The notes under the pieces are model-generated. The model was not told the origin of the DNA, searched no databases, and saw only the letters and a program-made list of their open reading frames with translations. From the human T2T-CHM13v2.0 reference genome, Homo sapiens, in assembly GCF_009914755.1 (NCBI RefSeq), contig NC_060941.1: DNA of 64,000 nucleotides, one strand, 5' to 3'. A program made the translations under genes and the position numbers. The number at the start of each line of letters is the position of its first letter. The first letter of the stretch is position 1. Of this stretch, positions 2,798 to 13,312 are shown piece by piece.

Positions 2798-3448
2798 GAA
2801 TTTTTTTTAAAACATTCATTTCAGTGGGAACTTAATTTGGGGCTAGCATGTTTTATTTAACTTTCACCCCAAAGTTGCAAAGTGTTTCGAGGTTTTTCTC
2901 TGTAAAATAATTATTTTAATTCAATTTAAATAAAACCCATCAAGGAAACTTTAACCTTTAAGAAATCTAGCTTCCCATGAAATGTGAGAGGAAGTCAGCA
3001 CTGATTTCAGAAATCTGATTATAACAGTAGATCTACCCCTTGATGAAGTGAGTCTTGGAATCCCTTCCATTTAAAACCATTAATCTGCAACATATGCCTA
3101 TTCTAGGCACTGGAATAAGATGAAGCACCTGCTTGGCGTTCACATGCTATTGATTGTGCCAGACAATGAGCAATAAAATAGGTAAGAATGGCAGTGGGGG
3201 AAGTCAGCTGGGTTCTAGTTACAGCCGCATTTCAGGAAATTGTTTAATATGCTGACTTTAACAACCTAAACCTCTTGTCCATGTGTGCACACAGGGTAGA
3301 CCTCTGAAGAGTGGCGCTGTAATTTCTATGGTAACGGCTGTGTTAAGTCAAGGCAGGAAGACAGTTCAGCCTCCTCGCAGGCTAGTAGTGCAAAGGGCTC
3401 TTCACTCGGATTAAAGCCTTCTCTCCCAGACTGAATTGCCCCCCCCAC

Positions 3449-3909
3449 TGTGAACCCCCTAAACTTGAGACAGGTCTTAGTTAATTTAGAAAGTTTATTT
3501 TGCCAAGGTTGAGGATGCACCAATGACAGCCTCAGGGAAGTCTTGACAAAATATGTCCAAGGTTGTCAGGCACAGCTTGGTTTCATACATTTAGGGAGAC
3601 ATCATGAGACATCAGTCAATATATGTTAAGAAGTACATTGCTTCATCTGGAAAGACAGGACAACTTGAAGCAAAGGCAGGAAGACTGAAGTGGGAAGGAA
3701 GCTTCCAGGTCACAGATGGCTGTTACACAAATGGTTCCATTCTTTTGAGTTTCTGATCAGCCTTTCCAAAGGAGGCAAATCAGATAAGCATCTATCTGAT
3801 TGGGCAAAGGAGTGACTTTGAATAGAATGGGAGGCAGGTTTGCCCTAAGCAGTTCCCGGCTTGAGTTTTCCTTCGTGATTTTGGGGACCACAGATATTTT
3901 CCTTTCACA
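3449..3909 (-). mobile_element. MER4A-type ERV1 3' LTR
   Basis: Reverse strand starts tgtgaaaggaaaata...ccccaaaatcac and carries AATAAA (tttatt near 3494). PPT aaaggggggaaa is adjacent at ~3910-3921. Confidence 0.75.
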
Positions 3910-4644
3910 TTTCCCCCCTTTTCTTTTTAAAAATCTGTTGGAGAAAGCATTTTACAAGAAAATGAGTCTCTGGTCTCAGGTTTCATTTGATCTCTCATGG
4001 CGAGGACAGTTTATTCCTTGATGGGTAGGTCCCAAAAGCTCATTTTTAGCAGGTTGTTAAGTCTCATGTCCTGCGAAGAGAAAATAGTGGGAGGAAGAGA
4101 GAGAAAACAACAACAAACAAAAGAACAATCCGGGAAACATTTGATATAGGCCTCATTACTCTGAAGTCTATGCATCAGTAGGCAGGTATGAAAGTGGTTT
4201 ATGTATGTAAATAGGTTGCTGTTATTTTCTTCTGAAGTTTAAGTTGTCTGGCTTCAGTTCACAGGATTTTAAGAAAGCACAGCTTAGTTTTCAGTGACTC
4301 CAAATTAGGAAAAATGGAAAAAAGAAGGAAAAAAAAATTTAAAAATTATTTTGGAGACTTGTAATAAAAAAAAATTAGAATTTGGTCCAAACTGTAGAAA
4401 GTAATCCAAATTGAAAAAAAATTAGGCAAGACTAGAATCTAACACAGATATATAATCATTTGGAAACATAAGTTTTTCTCCAGTTTCCCATTTTACTAAA
4501 GACAAATCATGGTAGGAATAGTAAACTTATTATATTGGTCTATATATTTGTATACATTGCATCAATAATAATAATTTTTTTTACATAGGCTTTTAAATTG
4601 GCTTTGATGTAACTTTGTTCCATAAGAGAAATCTTGGATAAGAC
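3910..4644 (-). mobile_element. MER4-group ERV internal 3' fragment, truncated at the LRRC37 junction
   Basis: Contiguous with the PPT and LTR; AT-rich MER4-int-like sequence ending ...cataagagaaatcttggataagac. Confidence 0.6.
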
Positions 4645-5190
4645 ACACCCACCTCTTCTGCCTCAGGAACTGACTGAGACTTTGATGAGACTTTGATTCC
4701 ATTTGTAGGCACAGATTCAGCTGGAGACCTGCCCCTGGAGCCAGAGAAATCTTGGATAAGACACACCCATCTCTTCTGCCTCAGGAACTGAGACTTTGAT
4801 GAGACTTTGTTTGCATTGGAGACCTGCCCCTGGAGCCAGAGAAATCTTGGATAAGACACACCCATCTCTTCTGCCTCAGGAACTGAGACTTTGATGAGAC
4901 TTTGATTGCATTCGTAGGCACAGATTCAGCTGGAGACCTGCCCCTGGAGCCAGAGAAATCTTGGATAAGACACACCCATCTCTTCTGCCTCAGGAACTGA
5001 CTGAGACTTTGATGAGACTTTGATTCCATTTGTAGGCACAGATTCAGCTGGAGACCTGCCCCTGGAGCCAGAGAAATCTTGGATAAGACACACCCATCTC
5101 TTCTGCCTCAGGAACTGACTGAGATTTTGATGAGACTTTGATTCCATTCGTAGGCACACATTCAGCTGGAGACCTGCGCCCGAAGCCAGA
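4625..5190 (+). repeat. Tandem repeat A: 5 units (118, 95, 114, 118, 118 bp), each ~20 bp ERV-int plus ~98 bp LRRC37 exon-1 sequence
   Basis: agagaaatcttggataagacacaccca starts at 4625, 4743, 4838, 4952 and 5070. Units contain an internal gagactttgat duplication. Confidence 0.92.
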
Positions 5191-5428
5191 GCAATTTGCT
5201 GCTGCACATCAGGATCTGTATGACAAGCTGACTCAGCAAGAAACGTTCCTAGAAGTGGTTCCAATGCAAGACTAGGACCAGAACCAGGCCCTAGCTTAGC
5301 TTTTCACCTCAAAAGTAGGTTGAAAATGTAGACCAGGATCTGTATGACAAGCTGACTCAGCAAGAAACGTTCCTAGAAGTGGTTCCAATGCTAGACAGGG
5401 ACCAGAACCAGGCCCTAGCTTAGCTTTT

Positions 5429-5789
5429 TGTTTGGACTCCGGTGAAGGCCCCAAGATGGCGACAGGCAACCATCTTGGCCACCCTGACTCAGCATTAGCG
5501 GGTTCATCTTCCCCCCGTTCCCGCCATCCCGGCAAGAACGTGAGCCCGCTAAGGCGTGTCACACTCAGGAAAATAAAACCTAACTAACTCCGCCCTTGCC
5601 CCACCCCGAATCCGCCCCTAACTCACCTAGTGTCCATATAAGCCTGCTGCACCTCCAACACAGTGCGACTTCCCCGGCCCTCCCCTGCGGACCAGTGAAC
5701 CTCGTCCAAGAGCTTAATAAAGGAACTTTTGCATTCTTTGCCCTGCCTCTCGACCCTTTTTGTCTACGGAACCCTTCCATTGCCTTTCA
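5429..5789 (+). mobile_element. Solo LTR copy 1 (361 bp, family unassigned)
   Basis: TG...CA ends with a 5-bp TSD CTTTT (5424-5428 and 5790-5794) relative to the empty unit ttagcttttcacc. Contains catataag TATA and AATAAA. Confidence 0.85.
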
Positions 5790-6044
5790 CTTTTCACCTC
5801 AAAAGCAAGGTTCTAAATGTAGACCAGAATCTGTATGACAAGCTGACTCAGCAAGAAACGTTCCTAGAAGTGGTTCCAATGCTAGACTGGGACCAGAGCC
5901 AGGACCTAGCTGAGCTTTTCACCTCAAAAGTAAGGTTCAAAATGTAGACCAGGATCTGTATGACAAGCTGACTCAGCAAGAAACGTTCCTAGAAGTGGTT
6001 CCAATGCTAGACTGGGAGCAGAACCAGGCCCTAGCTTAGCTTTT

Positions 6045-6405
6045 TGTTTGGACTCTGGTGAAGGCCCCAAGATGGCGACAGGCAACCATCTTGGCCACCC
6101 TGACTCAGCATTTCTGGGTTCATCTTCCCCCCGTTCCCACCATCCCGGCTAGCACGTGTGCCCACTAAGGCGCGTCACACTCAGGAAAAGGAAACCTAAC
6201 TAACTCCGCCCTTGCCCCACCCCGACTCCGCCCTCACCTCACCTAGTGTCCATATAAGCGAGCTGCACCTCCAACACAGTGCGACTTCCCTGGCCCTACC
6301 CTGCGGACCAGTGAACCTCGCCCGAGAGCTTAATAAAGGAACTTTTGCCTTCTTTGCCCTGCCTCTCGACCCTTTTTGTCCGCGGCACCCTTCCATTGCC
6401 TTTCA
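6045..6405 (+). mobile_element. Solo LTR copy 2
   Basis: Same 361-bp element with the same CTTTT flanks. Confidence 0.85.
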
Positions 6406-6784
6406 CTTTTCACCTCAAAAGTAAGGTTCAAAATGTGGACCAGGATCTGTATGACAAGCTGACTCAGCAAGAAACGTTCCTAGAAGTGGTTCCAACGCTA
6501 GACTGGGACCAGAACCAGGTCCTAGCTAAGCTTTTCACCTCAAAAGTAGGTTCAAAATGTAGATCAGGATCTGTATGACAAGCTGACTCAGCAAGAAACG
6601 TTCCTAGAAGTGGTTCCAATGCTAGAACGGGACCAGAACCAGGCCCTAGCTTAGGTTTTCCCCTCAAAAGTAAAGTTCAAAATGTAGACCAGGATCTGTA
6701 TGACAAGCTGACTCAGCAAGAAACGTTCCTAGAAGTGGTTCCAAAGCTAGACTGGGAGCAGAACCAGGCCCTAGCTTAGCTTTT

Positions 6785-7145
6785 TGTTTGGACTCCGGTG
6801 AAGGCCCCAAGATGGCGACAGGCAACCATCTTGGCCACCCTGACTCAGCATTTCCGGGTTCATCTTCCCCCCATTCCCGCCATCCCGGCTAGCACGCGTG
6901 CCCACTAAGGCGCGTCACTCTCAGGAAAACGAAACCTAACTAACGCCGCCCTTGCCCCACCCCGACTCCGCCCCTACATCACCTAGTGTCCATATAAGCG
7001 TGCTGCAACTACAACACAGTGCGACTTCCCTGGCCCTCCCCTGCGGACAAGTGAACCTTGCCCGAGGGCTTAATAAAGGAAACTTTGCCTTCTTTGCCCT
7101 GCCTCTCGACCCTTTTTGTCCGAGGCACTCTTCCATTGCCTTTCA
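6785..7145 (+). mobile_element. Solo LTR copy 3
   Basis: Same 361-bp element with the same CTTTT flanks. Confidence 0.85.
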
Positions 7146-7400
7146 CTTTTCACCTCAAAAGTAAGGTTCAAAATGTAGATCAGGATCTGTACGACAAGCT
7201 GACTCAGCAAGAAACATTCCTAGAAGTGGTTCCAATGCTAGACTGGGACCAGAGCCAGGCCCTACCTCAGCTTTTCACCTCAAAAGTAAGGTTCAAAATG
7301 TAGACCAGGATCTGTATGACAAGCTGACTCAGCAAGAAACGTTCCTAGAAGTGGTTCCAATGCTAGACTGGGAGCAGAACCAGGCCCTAGCTTAGCTTTT

Positions 7401-7761
7401 TGTTTGGACTCTGGTGAAGGCCCCAAGATGGCGACAGGCAACCATCTTGGCCACCCTGACTCAGCATTTCCGGGTTCATCTTCCCCCGGTTCCCGCCATC
7501 CGGGCTAGCATGTGTGCCCACTAAGGCGTGTCACACTCAGGAAAACGAAACCTAACTAATTCCGCCCTTGACCCACCCCGACTCTGCCCCTACCTCACCT
7601 AGTGTCCATATAAGCGTGCTGCACCTCCAACACAGTGCGACTTCTCTGGCCCTCCCCTGCGGACCAGTGAACCTCGCCCGAGAACTTAATAAAGGAACTT
7701 TTGCCTTCTTTGCCCTGCCTCTTGACGCTTTTTGTCCGCGGCACCCTTCCATTGCCTTTCA
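7401..7761 (+). mobile_element. Solo LTR copy 4
   Basis: Same 361-bp element with the same CTTTT flanks. Confidence 0.85.
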
Positions 7762-8140
7762 CTTTTCACCTCAAAAGTAAGGTTCAAAATATAGACCAGG
7801 ATTTGTATGACAGGCTGACTCAGGAAGAAACGTTCCTAGAAGTGGTTCCAATGCTAGACTGGGACCAGAACCATGCCCTAGCTTAGCTTTTCACCTCAAA
7901 AGTAGGTTCAAAATGTAGATCAAGATGTATATGACAAGCTGACTCAGCAAGAAACGTTCCTAGAAGTGGTTCTAATGCTAGACTGGGACCAGAACCAGGC
8001 CCTAGCTTAGTTTTTCACCTCAAAAGTAAGGTTCAAAATGTAGACCAGGATCTATATGACAAGCTGACTCAGCAAGAAACATTCCTAGAAGTGGTTCCAA
8101 TGCTAGATTGGGACCAGAACCAGGCCCTAGCTTAGCTTTT

Positions 8141-8501
8141 TGTTTGGACTCCGTTGAAGGTCCCAAGATGGCGACAGGCAACCATCTAGGCCACCCTGAC
8201 TCAGCATTTCCGGGTTCATCTTCCCCCAGTTCCTGCCATCCCGGCTAGCACACGTGCCCACTAAGGCGCGTCACACTCAGGAAAACGAAACCTAACTAAC
8301 TCCTCCCTTGCCCCACCCCAACTCCGCCCCTACCTCACCTAGTGTCCAGATAAGCGTGCTGCACCTCCAACACAATGCGACTTCCCTGGCCCTCCCCTGC
8401 GGACCAGTGAACCTCGCCTGAGAGCTTAATAAAGGAACTTTTGCCTTCTTTGCACTGCCTCTCGACCGTTTTTGTCCGTGGCACCCTTCCATTGCCTTTC
8501 A
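8141..8501 (+). mobile_element. Solo LTR copy 5 (TATA changed to cagataag)
   Basis: Same 361-bp element with the same CTTTT flanks. Confidence 0.85.
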
Positions 8502-8814
8502 CTTTTCACCTCAAAAGTAAGGTTCAAAATGTAGACCAGGATCTGTATGACAAGCTGACTCAGCAAGAAACGTTCCTAGAAGTGTTTCCAATGCTAGACT
8601 GGGACCAGAACCAGGCCCTACCTGAGCTTTTCACCACAAAAGTAGGTTCAAAATGCAGATCATGATCTGTATGACAAGCTGACTCAGCAAGAAACGTTCC
8701 TAGAAGTGGTTCCAATGCTAGACTGGGACCAGAACCAGGCCCTAGCTTAGCTTTTCACCTCAAAAGTAAGGGTCAAAATGTAGATGAAGATCAGACTGCA
8801 GATCATCAGGCATA

Positions 8815-12872
<4,058 letters not shown>

Positions 12873-13312
12873 TGTAAGGCTCTTGTGTTGGTTTGAACCC
12901 TGAGAGCACACCAACAAACATGCAGCTAATGCTCAGTGCATCAAAAGATGCTAGTGTTTGAAAGACTCAGAGACTTCTCTCAGGAATTTGCCAAGCACTT
13001 ACAGAACTCCATTTATATACAAATCTTTCTTACCCTGCCATCTCAAAAGGTATGGCTGATGGTCCATTATCTCTCAGAAAAATGTATTATAGCTCCAGAT
13101 GGTAGAATGACCAGGAAGAAATTTCATCTTGCAAGTCAGTGTTTATTAAGAACCCACTGTATGCCCAGCATCACACCAGGCTGGCAAGAAACAAAATAAT
13201 CCTGAGTGATCATCCTTCACAGAAAAAAGACTTGAATCATAATTGTAACAATCTAAAATCCAAACATCATCTTTTAGTGTGTCTTATAGTTCATTAAATT
13301 TTTGAATTGTTA

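What the first reader, a model, noticed from the sequence alone, without database searches (positions are those of the whole stretch)
5429..8501. One solo-LTR insertion multiplied five times as a dimeric higher-order repeat: a tandem promoter battery
Seen: five 361-bp TG...CA elements share the same CTTTT duplication at the same position of the host unit, so they come from a single insertion. Starts are spaced 616/740/616/740 bp, with 2, 3, 2 and 3 host units between them. Copies 2 and 4 share gactcTggtg and ccgcggc, and the units after copies 1 and 3 share gaccagaGcc, supporting a 1356-bp dimer that duplicated. Each LTR keeps CAAGATGGCG (YY1-type), GC boxes, TGACTCAGCA, AATAAA and many CpGs; copies 1-4 keep catataag. 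Inference: each LTR could start an RNA ending at the next LTR's poly(A) signal (~0.6-0.75 kb). The array is probably a polymorphic VNTR.
Basis: partly seen in the sequence, partly recalled or inferred. Interest (0 to 1): 0.75.

Follow-up and report, generated by a model that had tools for sequence, protein, structure and literature searches.

The report
Solo retroviral LTR multiplied within minisatellite
One end-piece (LTR) of an ancient ERV-Fc-type retrovirus landed in a short tandem repeat inside a broken LRRC37 gene copy and was copied five times along with it, probably 15-25 million years ago; it is a tidy but ordinary fossil, and no promoter role has been shown.

Summary
Five 361-bp TG...CA elements start at 5429, 6045, 6785, 7401 and 8141. 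Each lies between two CTTTT at the same point of a 125-bp host unit, spaced 616/740/616/740 bp.

The element is a true LTR. Its relatives elsewhere in the genome are solo copies with 5-bp duplications. Others are provirus pairs with a tRNA-Phe primer site (18 of 18 bases) and a purine tract. These are the marks of ERV-Fc (HERV-F(c)). The window's LTR is 19-28% from every other copy, so this lineage shows one integration in the regions searched.

The host unit is a piece of LRRC37 exon 1. It is single-copy in the paralogs, and amplified and inverted only here.

The five LTRs form a star-like tree: 56 of 62 variable sites are singletons. Sequence support for a 1356-bp dimer is therefore partial. 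They differ by 5-10% (K2P), which puts the burst near 12-22 My on the published family clock.

CpG sites decayed about six times faster than other sites, and U3, R and U5 vary equally. Neither points to a protected promoter. RefSeq lists two STARR-seq enhancer features over the array and no promoter or CAGE feature. Copy-number polymorphism could not be tested.

The parts
5429..5789 (+). Solo LTR copy 1 (361 bp, TG...CA), between CTTTT 5424-5428 and CTTTT 5790-5794
   Evidence: it has the most private changes (17 singleton sites)
6045..6405 (+). Solo LTR copy 2
   Evidence: 6 singleton sites; closest to copy 4 (18 of 361)
6785..7145 (+). Solo LTR copy 3
   Evidence: 12 singleton sites
7401..7761 (+). 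Solo LTR copy 4
   Evidence: 9 singleton sites
8141..8501 (+). Solo LTR copy 5 (TATA-like box changed: CAGATAAG)
   Evidence: 12 singleton sites
5196..5428 (+). Start of the 125-bp host array: a partial first unit, one unit with a 1-bp deletion, and the left CTTTT
5790..6044 (+). Two host units after LTR1 (a1.1, a1.2) plus CTTTT
6406..6784 (+). Three host units after LTR2 (the middle one has the 1-bp deletion) plus CTTTT
7146..7400 (+). Two host units after LTR3 (a3.2 is identical to a1.2) plus CTTTT
7762..8140 (+). Three host units after LTR4 (the middle one has the 1-bp deletion) plus CTTTT
8502..8792 (+). Last 2.3 host units; the array ends where single-copy LRRC37 exon-1 sequence resumes (to about 8817)
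5915..6114 (+). 200-bp run identical to 7271-7470 (unit before LTR2/LTR4, CTTTT, and the first 70 bp of the LTR); probably a conversion tract
   Evidence: other pairs: longest identical run 44-94 bp
4625..5195 (+). Neighbouring 118-bp tandem array (about 4.8 copies) from the adjoining piece of LRRC37 exon 1; single-copy in the paralogs
4450..5649 (.). RefSeq feature 'CDK7 strongly-dependent group 2 enhancer'; covers the 118-bp array, the first host units and the first 221 bp of LTR1
   Evidence: the origin of this feature class is given
7045..8244 (.). RefSeq feature 'BRD4-independent group 4 enhancer'; covers the end of LTR3, all of LTR4, five host units and the first 104 bp of LTR5
3479..12315 (-). 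RefSeq Gnomon lncRNA LOC101926984 (single exon), antisense to the LTRs; it spans both arms of the rearranged LRRC37 exon-1 fragment

Best explanation
A retrovirus of the ERV-Fc group (HERV-F(c); class I, gamma-like; tRNA-Phe primer; 5-bp target duplication) integrated once. The target was a 125-bp minisatellite that had formed from a piece of LRRC37 exon 1, in a rearranged, non-coding LRRC37 fragment at 17q11.2. The LTR lies in the sense orientation of that exon piece. Recombination between the two LTRs then left a solo LTR between the duplicated CTTTT (inferred; this is the usual route).

Misaligned exchange between the 125-bp units on either side then multiplied blocks of 'LTR + 2 or 3 units' to five copies. 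This happened in a short burst and may have included a duplication of a 1356-bp dimer. Since then the copies have decayed independently, with the fast CpG loss typical of germline-methylated DNA. One 200-bp exchange between the LTR2 and LTR4 neighbourhoods is the exception.

Today the array is most likely a neutral composite repeat. It holds 18 TGACTCAGCA motifs (13 in host units, 5 in LTRs) and five U3 regions, and fragments of it scored as enhancers in an episomal reporter screen. Promoter activity of the LTRs has not been shown.
For: LTR nature: relatives at 15 other places (20 LTR copies) align over the full length. Of 9 solo copies, 7 have perfect 5-bp duplications; 3 of 3 complete provirus pairs do too. 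The 5 distinct 5' LTRs are followed by a site matching the last 18 bases of this genome's tRNA-Phe-GAA plus CCA at 18, 18, 17, 17 and 15 of 18 bases. 4 of 4 distinct 3' LTRs are preceded by the same purine tract.

Family: print gives tRNA-Phe, TG/CA and 5-bp duplications as the ERV-Fc marks (passages). The R core (W 237-294) matches the 5' LTR of RefSeq ERVFC1 on X at 81-86%.

Single insertion: all five copies share the same duplication, unit position, orientation and lineage-specific features. No other copy in the genome is closer than 19%.

Host: the unit is single-copy in the paralogs and lies inside the coding exons of LRRC37B, A, A2 and A3 on the gene strand.

Burst: 56 of 62 variable sites are singletons.

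Methylated history: CpG-context sites differ by 16-33%, other sites by 2.3-6.2%.

Enhancer features.
Against: Naming: the subfamily could not be named, because no Dfam or RepeatMasker tool was on hand. Five open pieces from the leader/gag side of a related provirus matched no Pfam family. Apart from the ~60-bp R match to ERVFC1, the relatives' link to 'HERV-Fc2' rests on the printed family marks. One of the relatives lies near the band (my placement is recalled) that print gives for envF(c)2.

Steps not shown: the provirus stage and the LTR-LTR recombination are inferred.

Dating: gene conversion, of which one tract is seen, can make copies look younger. The clock is uncertain about two-fold.

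Function: the enhancer features come from an episomal assay in one cell line. I could not read the source paper.
Confidence: 0.8

Rival explanations
1. One reading: each of the five LTRs is a working promoter. Each starts an RNA that ends at the next LTR's poly(A) signal, giving 0.6-0.75-kb transcripts in germline, placenta or demethylated cells.
For: The TATA-like box is kept in 4 of 5 copies, AATAAA in 5 of 5, and the upstream boxes in 5 of 5. The layout (TATA-like box at 207, conserved R core from about 237, AATAAA at 288) is that of a normal LTR. Two RefSeq enhancer features overlap LTR1, LTR3, LTR4 and LTR5. Each copy has CpG observed/expected of 0.63-0.74 at 56-58% G+C.
Against: RefSeq has no promoter, CAGE cluster or plus-strand transcript here; its only model is on the minus strand. 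CpG-context sites diverged about six times faster than other sites, as in DNA methylated in the germline. U3, R and U5 vary alike at 16.9, 17.3 and 18.4%, so no constraint is seen. Keeping an 8-10-bp motif in 4-5 of 5 copies is expected at this divergence (inference). Each LTR's own AATAAA lies about 50 bases after the inferred start. A solo LTR also lacks the downstream leader that retroviruses are thought to use to skip that signal (recalled). An enhancer score in a reporter is not a start site.
Confidence: 0.12
2. A strict dimeric higher-order repeat: a 1356-bp block (LTR+2 units+LTR+3 units) formed first and then duplicated as a whole. Copies 1/3 and 2/4 would then be sister pairs.
For: The spacing is 616/740/616/740. 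The unit with the 1-bp deletion is the middle unit of both 3-unit spacers. Units a1.1 and a3.1 share a private G. Units a1.2 and a3.2 are identical, within a 200-bp identical run. LTR2-LTR4 is the smallest distance, 18 of 361.
Against: LTR1-LTR3 differ at 33 of 361, no closer than LTR1-LTR2 at 26. S1 versus S3 differ at 42 of 616 and S2 versus S4 at 41 of 740, against 31-40 of 486 for neighbouring or cross pairs. Only 6 of 62 variable LTR sites are shared by two copies. These are pairs 1+2, 1+4, 2+4 and 4+5 once each and 3+5 twice, so no pairing wins. The 200-bp identical run amid 5% divergence looks like later conversion, not shared descent. The deleted-unit type also occurs before LTR1 and after LTR5.
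Confidence: 0.45
3. Five independent integrations of the same virus into the same site of five different host units (a target-site hotspot).
For: The star-like tree alone cannot tell a burst of duplication from a burst of integration.
Against: All five have the same 5-bp duplication, the same unit position and the same orientation. No sixth copy of this lineage appears anywhere else in the genome searched. The host units next to the LTRs co-vary with the blocks. Related copies elsewhere have seven different duplicated 5-mers among 9 solo copies, so no strong site preference is seen.
Confidence: 0.01
4. The 361-bp segment is not retroviral but part of the ancestral host repeat.
For: None found.
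Against: The paralogues carry the unit without the segment. Nine unit junctions within the same array are uninterrupted. Homologues elsewhere are bounded by duplications, a primer site and a purine tract.
Confidence: 0.01

Closest known systems
ERV-Fc / HERV-F(c) LTRs (Repbase names in print: HERV-Fc2_LTR, HERV-Fc1_LTR1-3)
   Same: It has TG...CA ends and a 5-bp target duplication. It aligns over its full length with LTRs whose proviruses use a tRNA-Phe primer site. It shares the boxes CAAGATGG and CCATCTTGGC..CTGACTCAGCATT, a TATA-like box and a conserved R with AATAAA. The R core also matches the 5' LTR of RefSeq ERVFC1.
   Different: It is 19-28% from every other copy in this genome, while the three groups of relatives are 4-11% apart internally. 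It has its own U3 features, for example an extra GC-rich 11 bp. It is known here from one integration only. Which Repbase/Dfam name it bears, if any, could not be tested.
RNU2 macrosatellite (6.1-kb unit holding five Alu and one LTR)
   Same: One transposable-element insertion is carried along in every unit of a tandem array on chromosome 17 (passages of PMC3795722).
   Different: RNU2 is a nearly perfect, highly polymorphic array of functional genes kept uniform by exchange. Here there are only five copies, 5-9% apart and decaying independently, with no gene in the unit.
'Composite elements' of the T2T-CHM13 repeat catalogue (Hoyt et al. preprint)
   Same: The repeating unit is built of a transposable element plus other repeated subunits, arranged in tandem (definition in passages).
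   Different: The preprint's text names neither LRRC37 nor HERV-Fc (0 occurrences each). Its list of 19 composites is in a supplement I could not open, so I cannot tell whether this array is one of them.
Transposable-element-derived minisatellites (Ahmed and Liang 2012)
   Same: It is a tandem repeat containing transposable-element sequence, with growth ascribed to slippage or unequal crossing-over. That paper scored 23% of human minisatellites as TE-derived (passages).
   Different: There, a part of the element itself is usually the repeat unit. Here a whole LTR was caught in a pre-existing, exon-derived minisatellite and rides along with 2-3 host units.
Exon-1 tandem expansions in the LRRC37 family (rat Lrrc37a2, 300-bp unit)
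   Same: A piece of LRRC37 exon 1 was amplified in tandem in one lineage or locus (passage of PMC3530683).
   Different: The rat array is coding. The window's 125-bp unit is not a multiple of three, and it sits in an inverted, non-coding fragment.

Membership tests
ERV-Fc (HERV-F(c)) LTR | TG...CA termini | tested here: met
   All five copies begin TG and end CA. Of the 18 relatives examined, 17 do too; L020 has a replaced 3' end.
ERV-Fc (HERV-F(c)) LTR | 5-bp target-site duplication (print: ERV-Fc makes 5 bp, most class I ERVs 4 bp) | tested here: met
   CTTTT lies on both sides of all five copies. Among relatives, 7 of 9 solo copies and 3 of 3 complete pairs have perfect 5-bp duplications. 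The criterion is from passages of PMC4798954, which add that HERV-H also makes 5 bp.
ERV-Fc (HERV-F(c)) LTR | Primer-binding site complementary to tRNA-Phe (GAA) | tested here: inconclusive
   A solo LTR has no primer site, so this cannot be tested on the element itself. In relatives the match is 18, 18, 17, 17 and 15 of 18 after 5 distinct 5' LTRs, and 17 of 18 at ERVFC1 on X.
ERV-Fc (HERV-F(c)) LTR | Sequence likeness to LTRs of named ERV-Fc loci | tested here: inconclusive
   Only about 60 bp (R core) match the LTR of RefSeq ERVFC1, at 81-86%. Full-length likeness (72-81%) is to unnamed tRNA-Phe proviruses. One of them lies at chr7:154.59 Mb, and print places envF(c)2 in 7q36.2. I could not prove that the two are the same provirus.
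ERV-Fc (HERV-F(c)) LTR | Core-gene (gag/pol) relationship of the associated proviruses | tested here: inconclusive
   Five open pieces from 1.8 kb after a related 5' LTR gave 0 Pfam families.
ERV-Fc (HERV-F(c)) LTR | Dfam/Repbase classification | not testable with these tools
   No repeat library was on hand. Repbase names are known only from passages of PMC5753468.
Solo LTR | One LTR bounded directly by the target duplication, with no internal viral sequence | tested here: met
   Host-unit sequence resumes at the base after each CTTTT. No primer site or purine tract adjoins any copy.
Dimeric higher-order repeat | Alternating period | tested here: met
   616/740/616/740.
Dimeric higher-order repeat | Copies i and i+2 more alike than i and i+1 | tested here: inconclusive
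   True for 2/4 (18 against 22-26 of 361). Not true for 1/3 (33 against 26). For 3/5 the distance is 26, equal to 3/4 and 4/5 and above 2/3 at 22. The shared LTR sites fit no pairing.
Active LTR promoter array | Recorded transcription start sites on the LTR strand | tested here: not met
   The RefSeq table for window 3000-13000 has no promoter, CAGE cluster or plus-strand transcript. This covers annotation only; raw expression data were not available.
Active LTR promoter array | Sequence constraint or protection from CpG decay | tested here: not met
   Variable sites are 16.9% in U3, 17.3% in R and 18.4% in U5. CpG-context sites differ by 16-33%, other sites by 2.3-6.2%.
Polymorphic VNTR | Copy number differs among haplotypes | not testable with these tools
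   Only one haplotype was at hand. RefSeq lists no tandem_repeat or minisatellite feature here.
Composite repeat (T2T sense) | A tandem unit made of a transposable element plus other repeated subunits | tested here: met
   The unit is one LTR plus 2-3 copies of the 125-bp unit, present five times. The definition is from passages. Whether it is in the curated list is unknown, because the supplement is closed.

The most novel reading that the evidence does not exclude
The five copies may be the only trace in the human reference of a third ERV-Fc lineage. It would be distinct from the X-linked F(c)1 and from the F(c)2-type groups, would have entered the germline once, and would survive only because host recombination multiplied it. 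The resulting 3.5-kb composite holds five U3 regions and 18 TGACTCAGCA motifs, 13 of them created in the host unit by one CpG-to-CpA change. It may act as a stress- or AP-1/MAF-type responsive enhancer cluster for neighbouring genes such as TMEM97.
Probability: 0.12. Interest if true: 0.55.

Novelty: new member of a known kind. Interest (0 to 1): 0.3.

Why it matters
It is a clean worked example of how a single retroviral integration can be multiplied by the host's own recombination and not by retrotransposition. Counts of 'LTR copies' from repeat annotation would overstate integrations here by five to one.

It also records an ERV-Fc-type LTR lineage with no second locus in the regions of this reference that could be searched. 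That adds a data point to the history of a low-copy family.

The functional side rests on two reporter-assay enhancer features and a dense motif array. It is worth a look in existing expression, binding and methylation data, but nothing so far sets it apart from many decayed LTRs.

Tried and rejected
**Gene-based naming.** I fetched 1.8 kb after a related 5' LTR, listed open frames and scanned five open minus-strand pieces separately in Pfam. No family matched, so what that stretch holds is unverified, and I dropped the route.

**Source paper for the RefSeq enhancer class.** Neumayr et al. 2022 is not held under either its PMC id or its DOI. I rely on passages of PMC11924960, which say the class comes from a STARR-seq screen in a colorectal carcinoma line. 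What 'group 2' and 'group 4' mean I could not read.

**Rfam.** No family reached its gathering score in 4400-9000.

**Repeat masking.** The RefSeq table shows no masked stretch of 100 bp or more between 4387 and 12239. I draw nothing from this. From recall, NCBI's soft-masking is word-frequency based and would not flag a five-copy element.

**Print.** The library holds 0 papers with LOC101926984 and 0 papers with both LRRC37 and HERV-F. A search for LRRC37 / LTR / tandem repeat returned SVA and NF1-deletion papers, none judged from its title or abstract start to concern this array. Giannuzzi 2013 has 0 occurrences of 'LTR' and of 'tandem repeat'. The Hoyt preprint has 0 occurrences of 'LRRC37' and of 'HERV-Fc'. 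Supplements were closed: Diehl's source data listing the human loci, and Hoyt's Table S2 of composites. Either could name the LTR or show the array is already catalogued.

**What I saw of each paper.**
- Passages only: PMC4798954, PMC5753468, PMC3459695, PMC3113919, the Hoyt preprint, PMC11924960, PMC3389668, PMC3795722, PMC3530683.
- Search listing only: PMC3371713.
- Not seen at all: Bénit 2003 and Neumayr 2022.

**Rows dropped before the distance matrix.** I dropped L012 and L019, the Y-chromosome duplicates of L013 and L020. I also dropped L017, L018, L022, L023 and L030, which are split pieces of the copies held as L026, L029, L028, L027 and L016.

**Names recalled, not tested.**
- AP-1/MARE for TGACTCAGCA.
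- YY1 for CAAGATGGCG.
- Poly(A) skipping in 5' LTRs.
- The cytoband of chr7:154.59 Mb.


Full report
**What is there.** Window 5429-8501 holds five 361-bp copies of one element, starting at 5429, 6045, 6785, 7401 and 8141. Each begins TG, ends CA and lies between two CTTTT. Between them lie 2, 3, 2 and 3 copies of a 125-bp unit (124 bp in the units with a 1-bp deletion). This gives starts 616/740/616/740 bp apart. The copies differ at 18-34 of 361 positions. Nine junctions between neighbouring units in the same array are uninterrupted and carry one CTTTT (GTTTT and TTTTT in two units). The five interrupted junctions carry two.

**It is an LTR.** A search of the whole reference with copy 1 gave 34 matches. 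Five are the local copies. Twenty-seven collapse to 20 LTR copies at 15 other places on chromosomes 2, 4, 7, 9, 11, 14, 16, 19 and Y. The last two are weak matches on X. Read in the element's orientation, the relatives behave as follows.
- Of 9 solo copies, 7 have perfect 5-bp flanking duplications, one has 4 of 5 and one 3 of 5.
- All 3 complete provirus pairs (4.9-9.6 kb apart) have perfect 5-bp duplications.
- All 4 distinct 3' LTRs follow the same purine tract.
- All 5 distinct 5' LTRs are followed, one base on, by a primer-binding site.

I took this genome's TRF-GAA1-1 gene. The primer site matches the reverse complement of its last 18 bases plus CCA at 18, 18, 17, 17 and 15 of 18.

**Family.** Passages of Diehl et al. 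2016 (PMC4798954) define ERV-Fc by a tRNA-Phe(GAA) primer site, TG/CA ends and 5-bp duplications. Most class I ERVs make 4 bp; HERV-H also makes 5 bp. The window's element meets the two marks a solo LTR can show. The two weak X matches lie at either end of the RefSeq gene ERVFC1, chrX:96281187-96288824. I fetched only its 5' LTR stretch. It shares a core of about 60 bp (element positions 237-294, the inferred R region up to AATAAA) at 81-86% with the window's copies and 82-91% with the other relatives. A 17-of-18 tRNA-Phe site follows it. So all these LTRs belong to one wider family, and the window's element aligns over its full length only with the non-X groups.

Print says humans have one HERV-Fc1 locus, plus an Fc2 master and truncated Fc2-like elements (PMC3459695 passages). 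It places envF(c)2 (ERVFC1-1) at 7q36.2 (PMC3113919). One related 5' LTR lies at chr7:154.59 Mb, but I could not prove it is that provirus. Repbase lists HERV-Fc2_LTR and HERV-Fc1_LTR1-3 (PMC5753468). Which of these names fits, if any, needs a repeat library I did not have.

In pairwise distances over 18 relatives (dropped rows are listed under Tried and rejected), three groups appear, each 4-11% apart internally. The window's copies are 19.3-27.8% from all of them and closest to the 459-476-bp group. The alignment shows shared ends, shared U3 boxes and a strongly conserved R, alongside private U3 features. I read this as a separate viral lineage with one integration. That holds only for the regions of the reference that are not closed.

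**Host setting.** Genome searches find it as a single copy in LRRC37 paralogues at 74-83% identity. The neighbouring 118-bp unit (array 4625-5195) is also single-copy there. The matches fall inside the large coding exon of LRRC37B (125-bp unit) and of LRRC37A, A2 and A3 (118-bp unit). They always lie on the gene's own strand, so the window's plus strand is the LRRC37 sense strand here. I mapped five paralogue loci onto the window and read four of them for the junction. There the single unit lies some 150-220 bp from the sequence matching window 11970-12236, in the opposite relative orientation. So window 4657-8817 is inverted relative to 8818-12236. Both tandem amplifications are private to this locus.

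The RefSeq lncRNA LOC101926984 is a single minus-strand exon across all of this. The LTRs point the other way, in the sense direction of the exon piece they sit in.

**One insertion, multiplied by the host.** All five copies share the same duplicated 5-mer, unit position, orientation and private LTR features. This lineage has no other copy elsewhere. Together these make a single integration followed by duplication of 'LTR + units' blocks the only economical reading. Misaligned exchange between flanking 125-bp units gives exactly the observed periods: 361+5+250 and 361+5+374.

**The dimer model.**
- For: the alternating spacing. The 1-bp-deleted unit sits in the middle of both 3-unit spacers. 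Units a1.1 and a3.1 share a private G. Units a1.2 and a3.2 are identical. LTR2-LTR4 is the closest pair.
- Against: the LTR tree is a star. Of 62 variable sites, 56 are private to one copy (17, 6, 12, 9 and 12). The 6 shared sites split over five different pairs. LTR1-LTR3 (33) is no closer than LTR1-LTR2 (26). Whole periods 1 and 3 differ at 42 of 616, and periods 2 and 4 at 41 of 740, much like cross pairs.

The identical run of 200 bp (5915-6114 = 7271-7470) stands out against 44-94 bp in the other nine pairs. Amid 5% divergence it looks like a later conversion tract. The other I read as a retained CpG-bearing state, because copies 1, 3 and 5 each differ from it in their own way. A dimer duplication may well have been one step, but all steps fell within one short burst.

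**Age.** K2P distances among the five copies are 0.052-0.101, mean 0.077. With the rate that the ERV-Fc paper applies to LTR pairs (4.5e-9 per site per year), the burst dates to 11.5-22 My, mean 17. Slower clocks of 1.0-1.3e-9 per lineage give 20-50 My. As an internal yardstick, the 5' and 3' LTRs of related proviruses in this genome differ by 4.7, 6.4, 7.4 and 9.6% (the last on Y). Print brackets entry of ERV-Fc2 into ape ancestors at 19.9-15.8 My, with the oldest loci near 20 My. So the burst is about as old as those integrations, and the integration here is at least that old. My best estimate is 15-25 My, uncertain about two-fold. Conversion would bias it young.

**Function.** Nothing I could compute supports working promoters.
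- CpG-context sites differ by 16-33% between copies, against 2.3-6.2% elsewhere. This is the pattern of germline-methylated DNA (inference).
- Variable sites are spread evenly over U3, the inferred R and U5, at 16.9, 17.3 and 18.4%.
- The relatives have similar CpG observed/expected values: 0.54-0.87 against 0.63-0.74 here.
- RefSeq lists no promoter, CAGE cluster or plus-strand RNA in 3000-13000.

RefSeq does list two enhancer features, 4450-5649 and 7045-8244. This feature class comes from a STARR-seq reporter screen in a colorectal carcinoma line (PMC11924960 passages; the source paper is not held). They cover the first 221 bp of LTR1, the end of LTR3, all of LTR4 and the start of LTR5, but also many host units.

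The host units may matter as much as the LTRs. TGACTCAGCA occurs 18 times in the window, all on the plus strand within 5229-8689 (13 in host units, 5 in LTRs), against 0.11 expected by chance. The four paralogues aligned read ...TGACTCGGCA...CTGCA or ...CCG at this point. A CpG-to-CpA change in this locus therefore appears to have made the motif before the unit multiplied (inference). Its naming as an AP-1/MAF-type site is recalled, not tested.

However, each LTR's own AATAAA lies about 50 bases after the inferred start.

**Known or new.** Transposable elements inside tandem units are familiar. Examples are the RNU2 unit with its LTR, TE-derived minisatellites and the T2T 'composite elements'. 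Exon-1 expansions also recur in the LRRC37 family. I found no print on this array (0 occurrences), but closed supplements could hold it. I file it as a new member of a known kind, of modest interest. The one less ordinary point is an ERV-Fc-type LTR lineage seen at a single locus.

**Limits.** I had one haplotype, no other primate genomes, no repeat library and no expression or methylation data. Some regions of the reference are closed.

Noticed in passing
window 4625-5195: A second locus-specific tandem array: about 4.8 copies of a 118-bp unit from the LRRC37 exon-1 piece just upstream of the 125-bp unit. It is single-copy in LRRC37A, A2, A3 and several pseudogenes.
   Followed up: partly
window 4657-8817 versus 8818-12236: The two parts of the LRRC37 exon-1 fragment are in opposite orientation compared with the paralogue loci read for it. 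The single-exon RefSeq lncRNA model runs across the junction, which lies between about 8817 and 8964.
   Followed up: partly
window 5229-8689 (host units): Every host unit except a4.1 reads GCTGACTCAGCA where the four paralogues aligned read GCTGACTCGGCA, ..CTGCA or ..CCG. One CpG-to-CpA change made a TGACTCA-type motif, which then multiplied. The unit also keeps an ancestral CCAAT.
   Followed up: partly
L012/L013 and L019/L020 (chrY:18.52 Mb and 19.20 Mb): The same related provirus, with identical flanks, occurs twice on Y in opposite orientation, about 0.68 Mb apart, as expected for a large inverted duplication. Its 3' LTR has a replaced end, so no target duplication can be read.
   Followed up: no
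L014, L016, L026, L028, L029 (459-476 bp); L024, L025, L027 (419-425 bp): Two groups of related LTRs carry two or three tandem copies of the U3 box CCATCTTGGC..CCCTGACT..GCATT. The window's LTR and the 343-346-bp group carry it once. This is enhancer-repeat variation between sublineages.
   Followed up: no
window 4402-4644: A stretch of about 245 bp matches many chromosomes at 81-85%. It is an interspersed repeat of a family I did not identify, next to a masked stretch at 4267-4387.
   Followed up: no
window 8910-9209, 9642-10017, 10110-10226, 11966-12107: Further tandem repeats (147-bp and about 60-bp periods) lie on the antisense arm. They may correspond to the repetitive exon-1 segments that print describes for LRRC37A.
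   Followed up: no
L008 (chr7:154,587,025-154,587,370) and L049: A related 5' LTR with a perfect tRNA-Phe site lies next to LINC01287. No partner 3' LTR appeared among the scored matches. Five open pieces from the 1.8 kb after it matched no Pfam family.
   Followed up: partly
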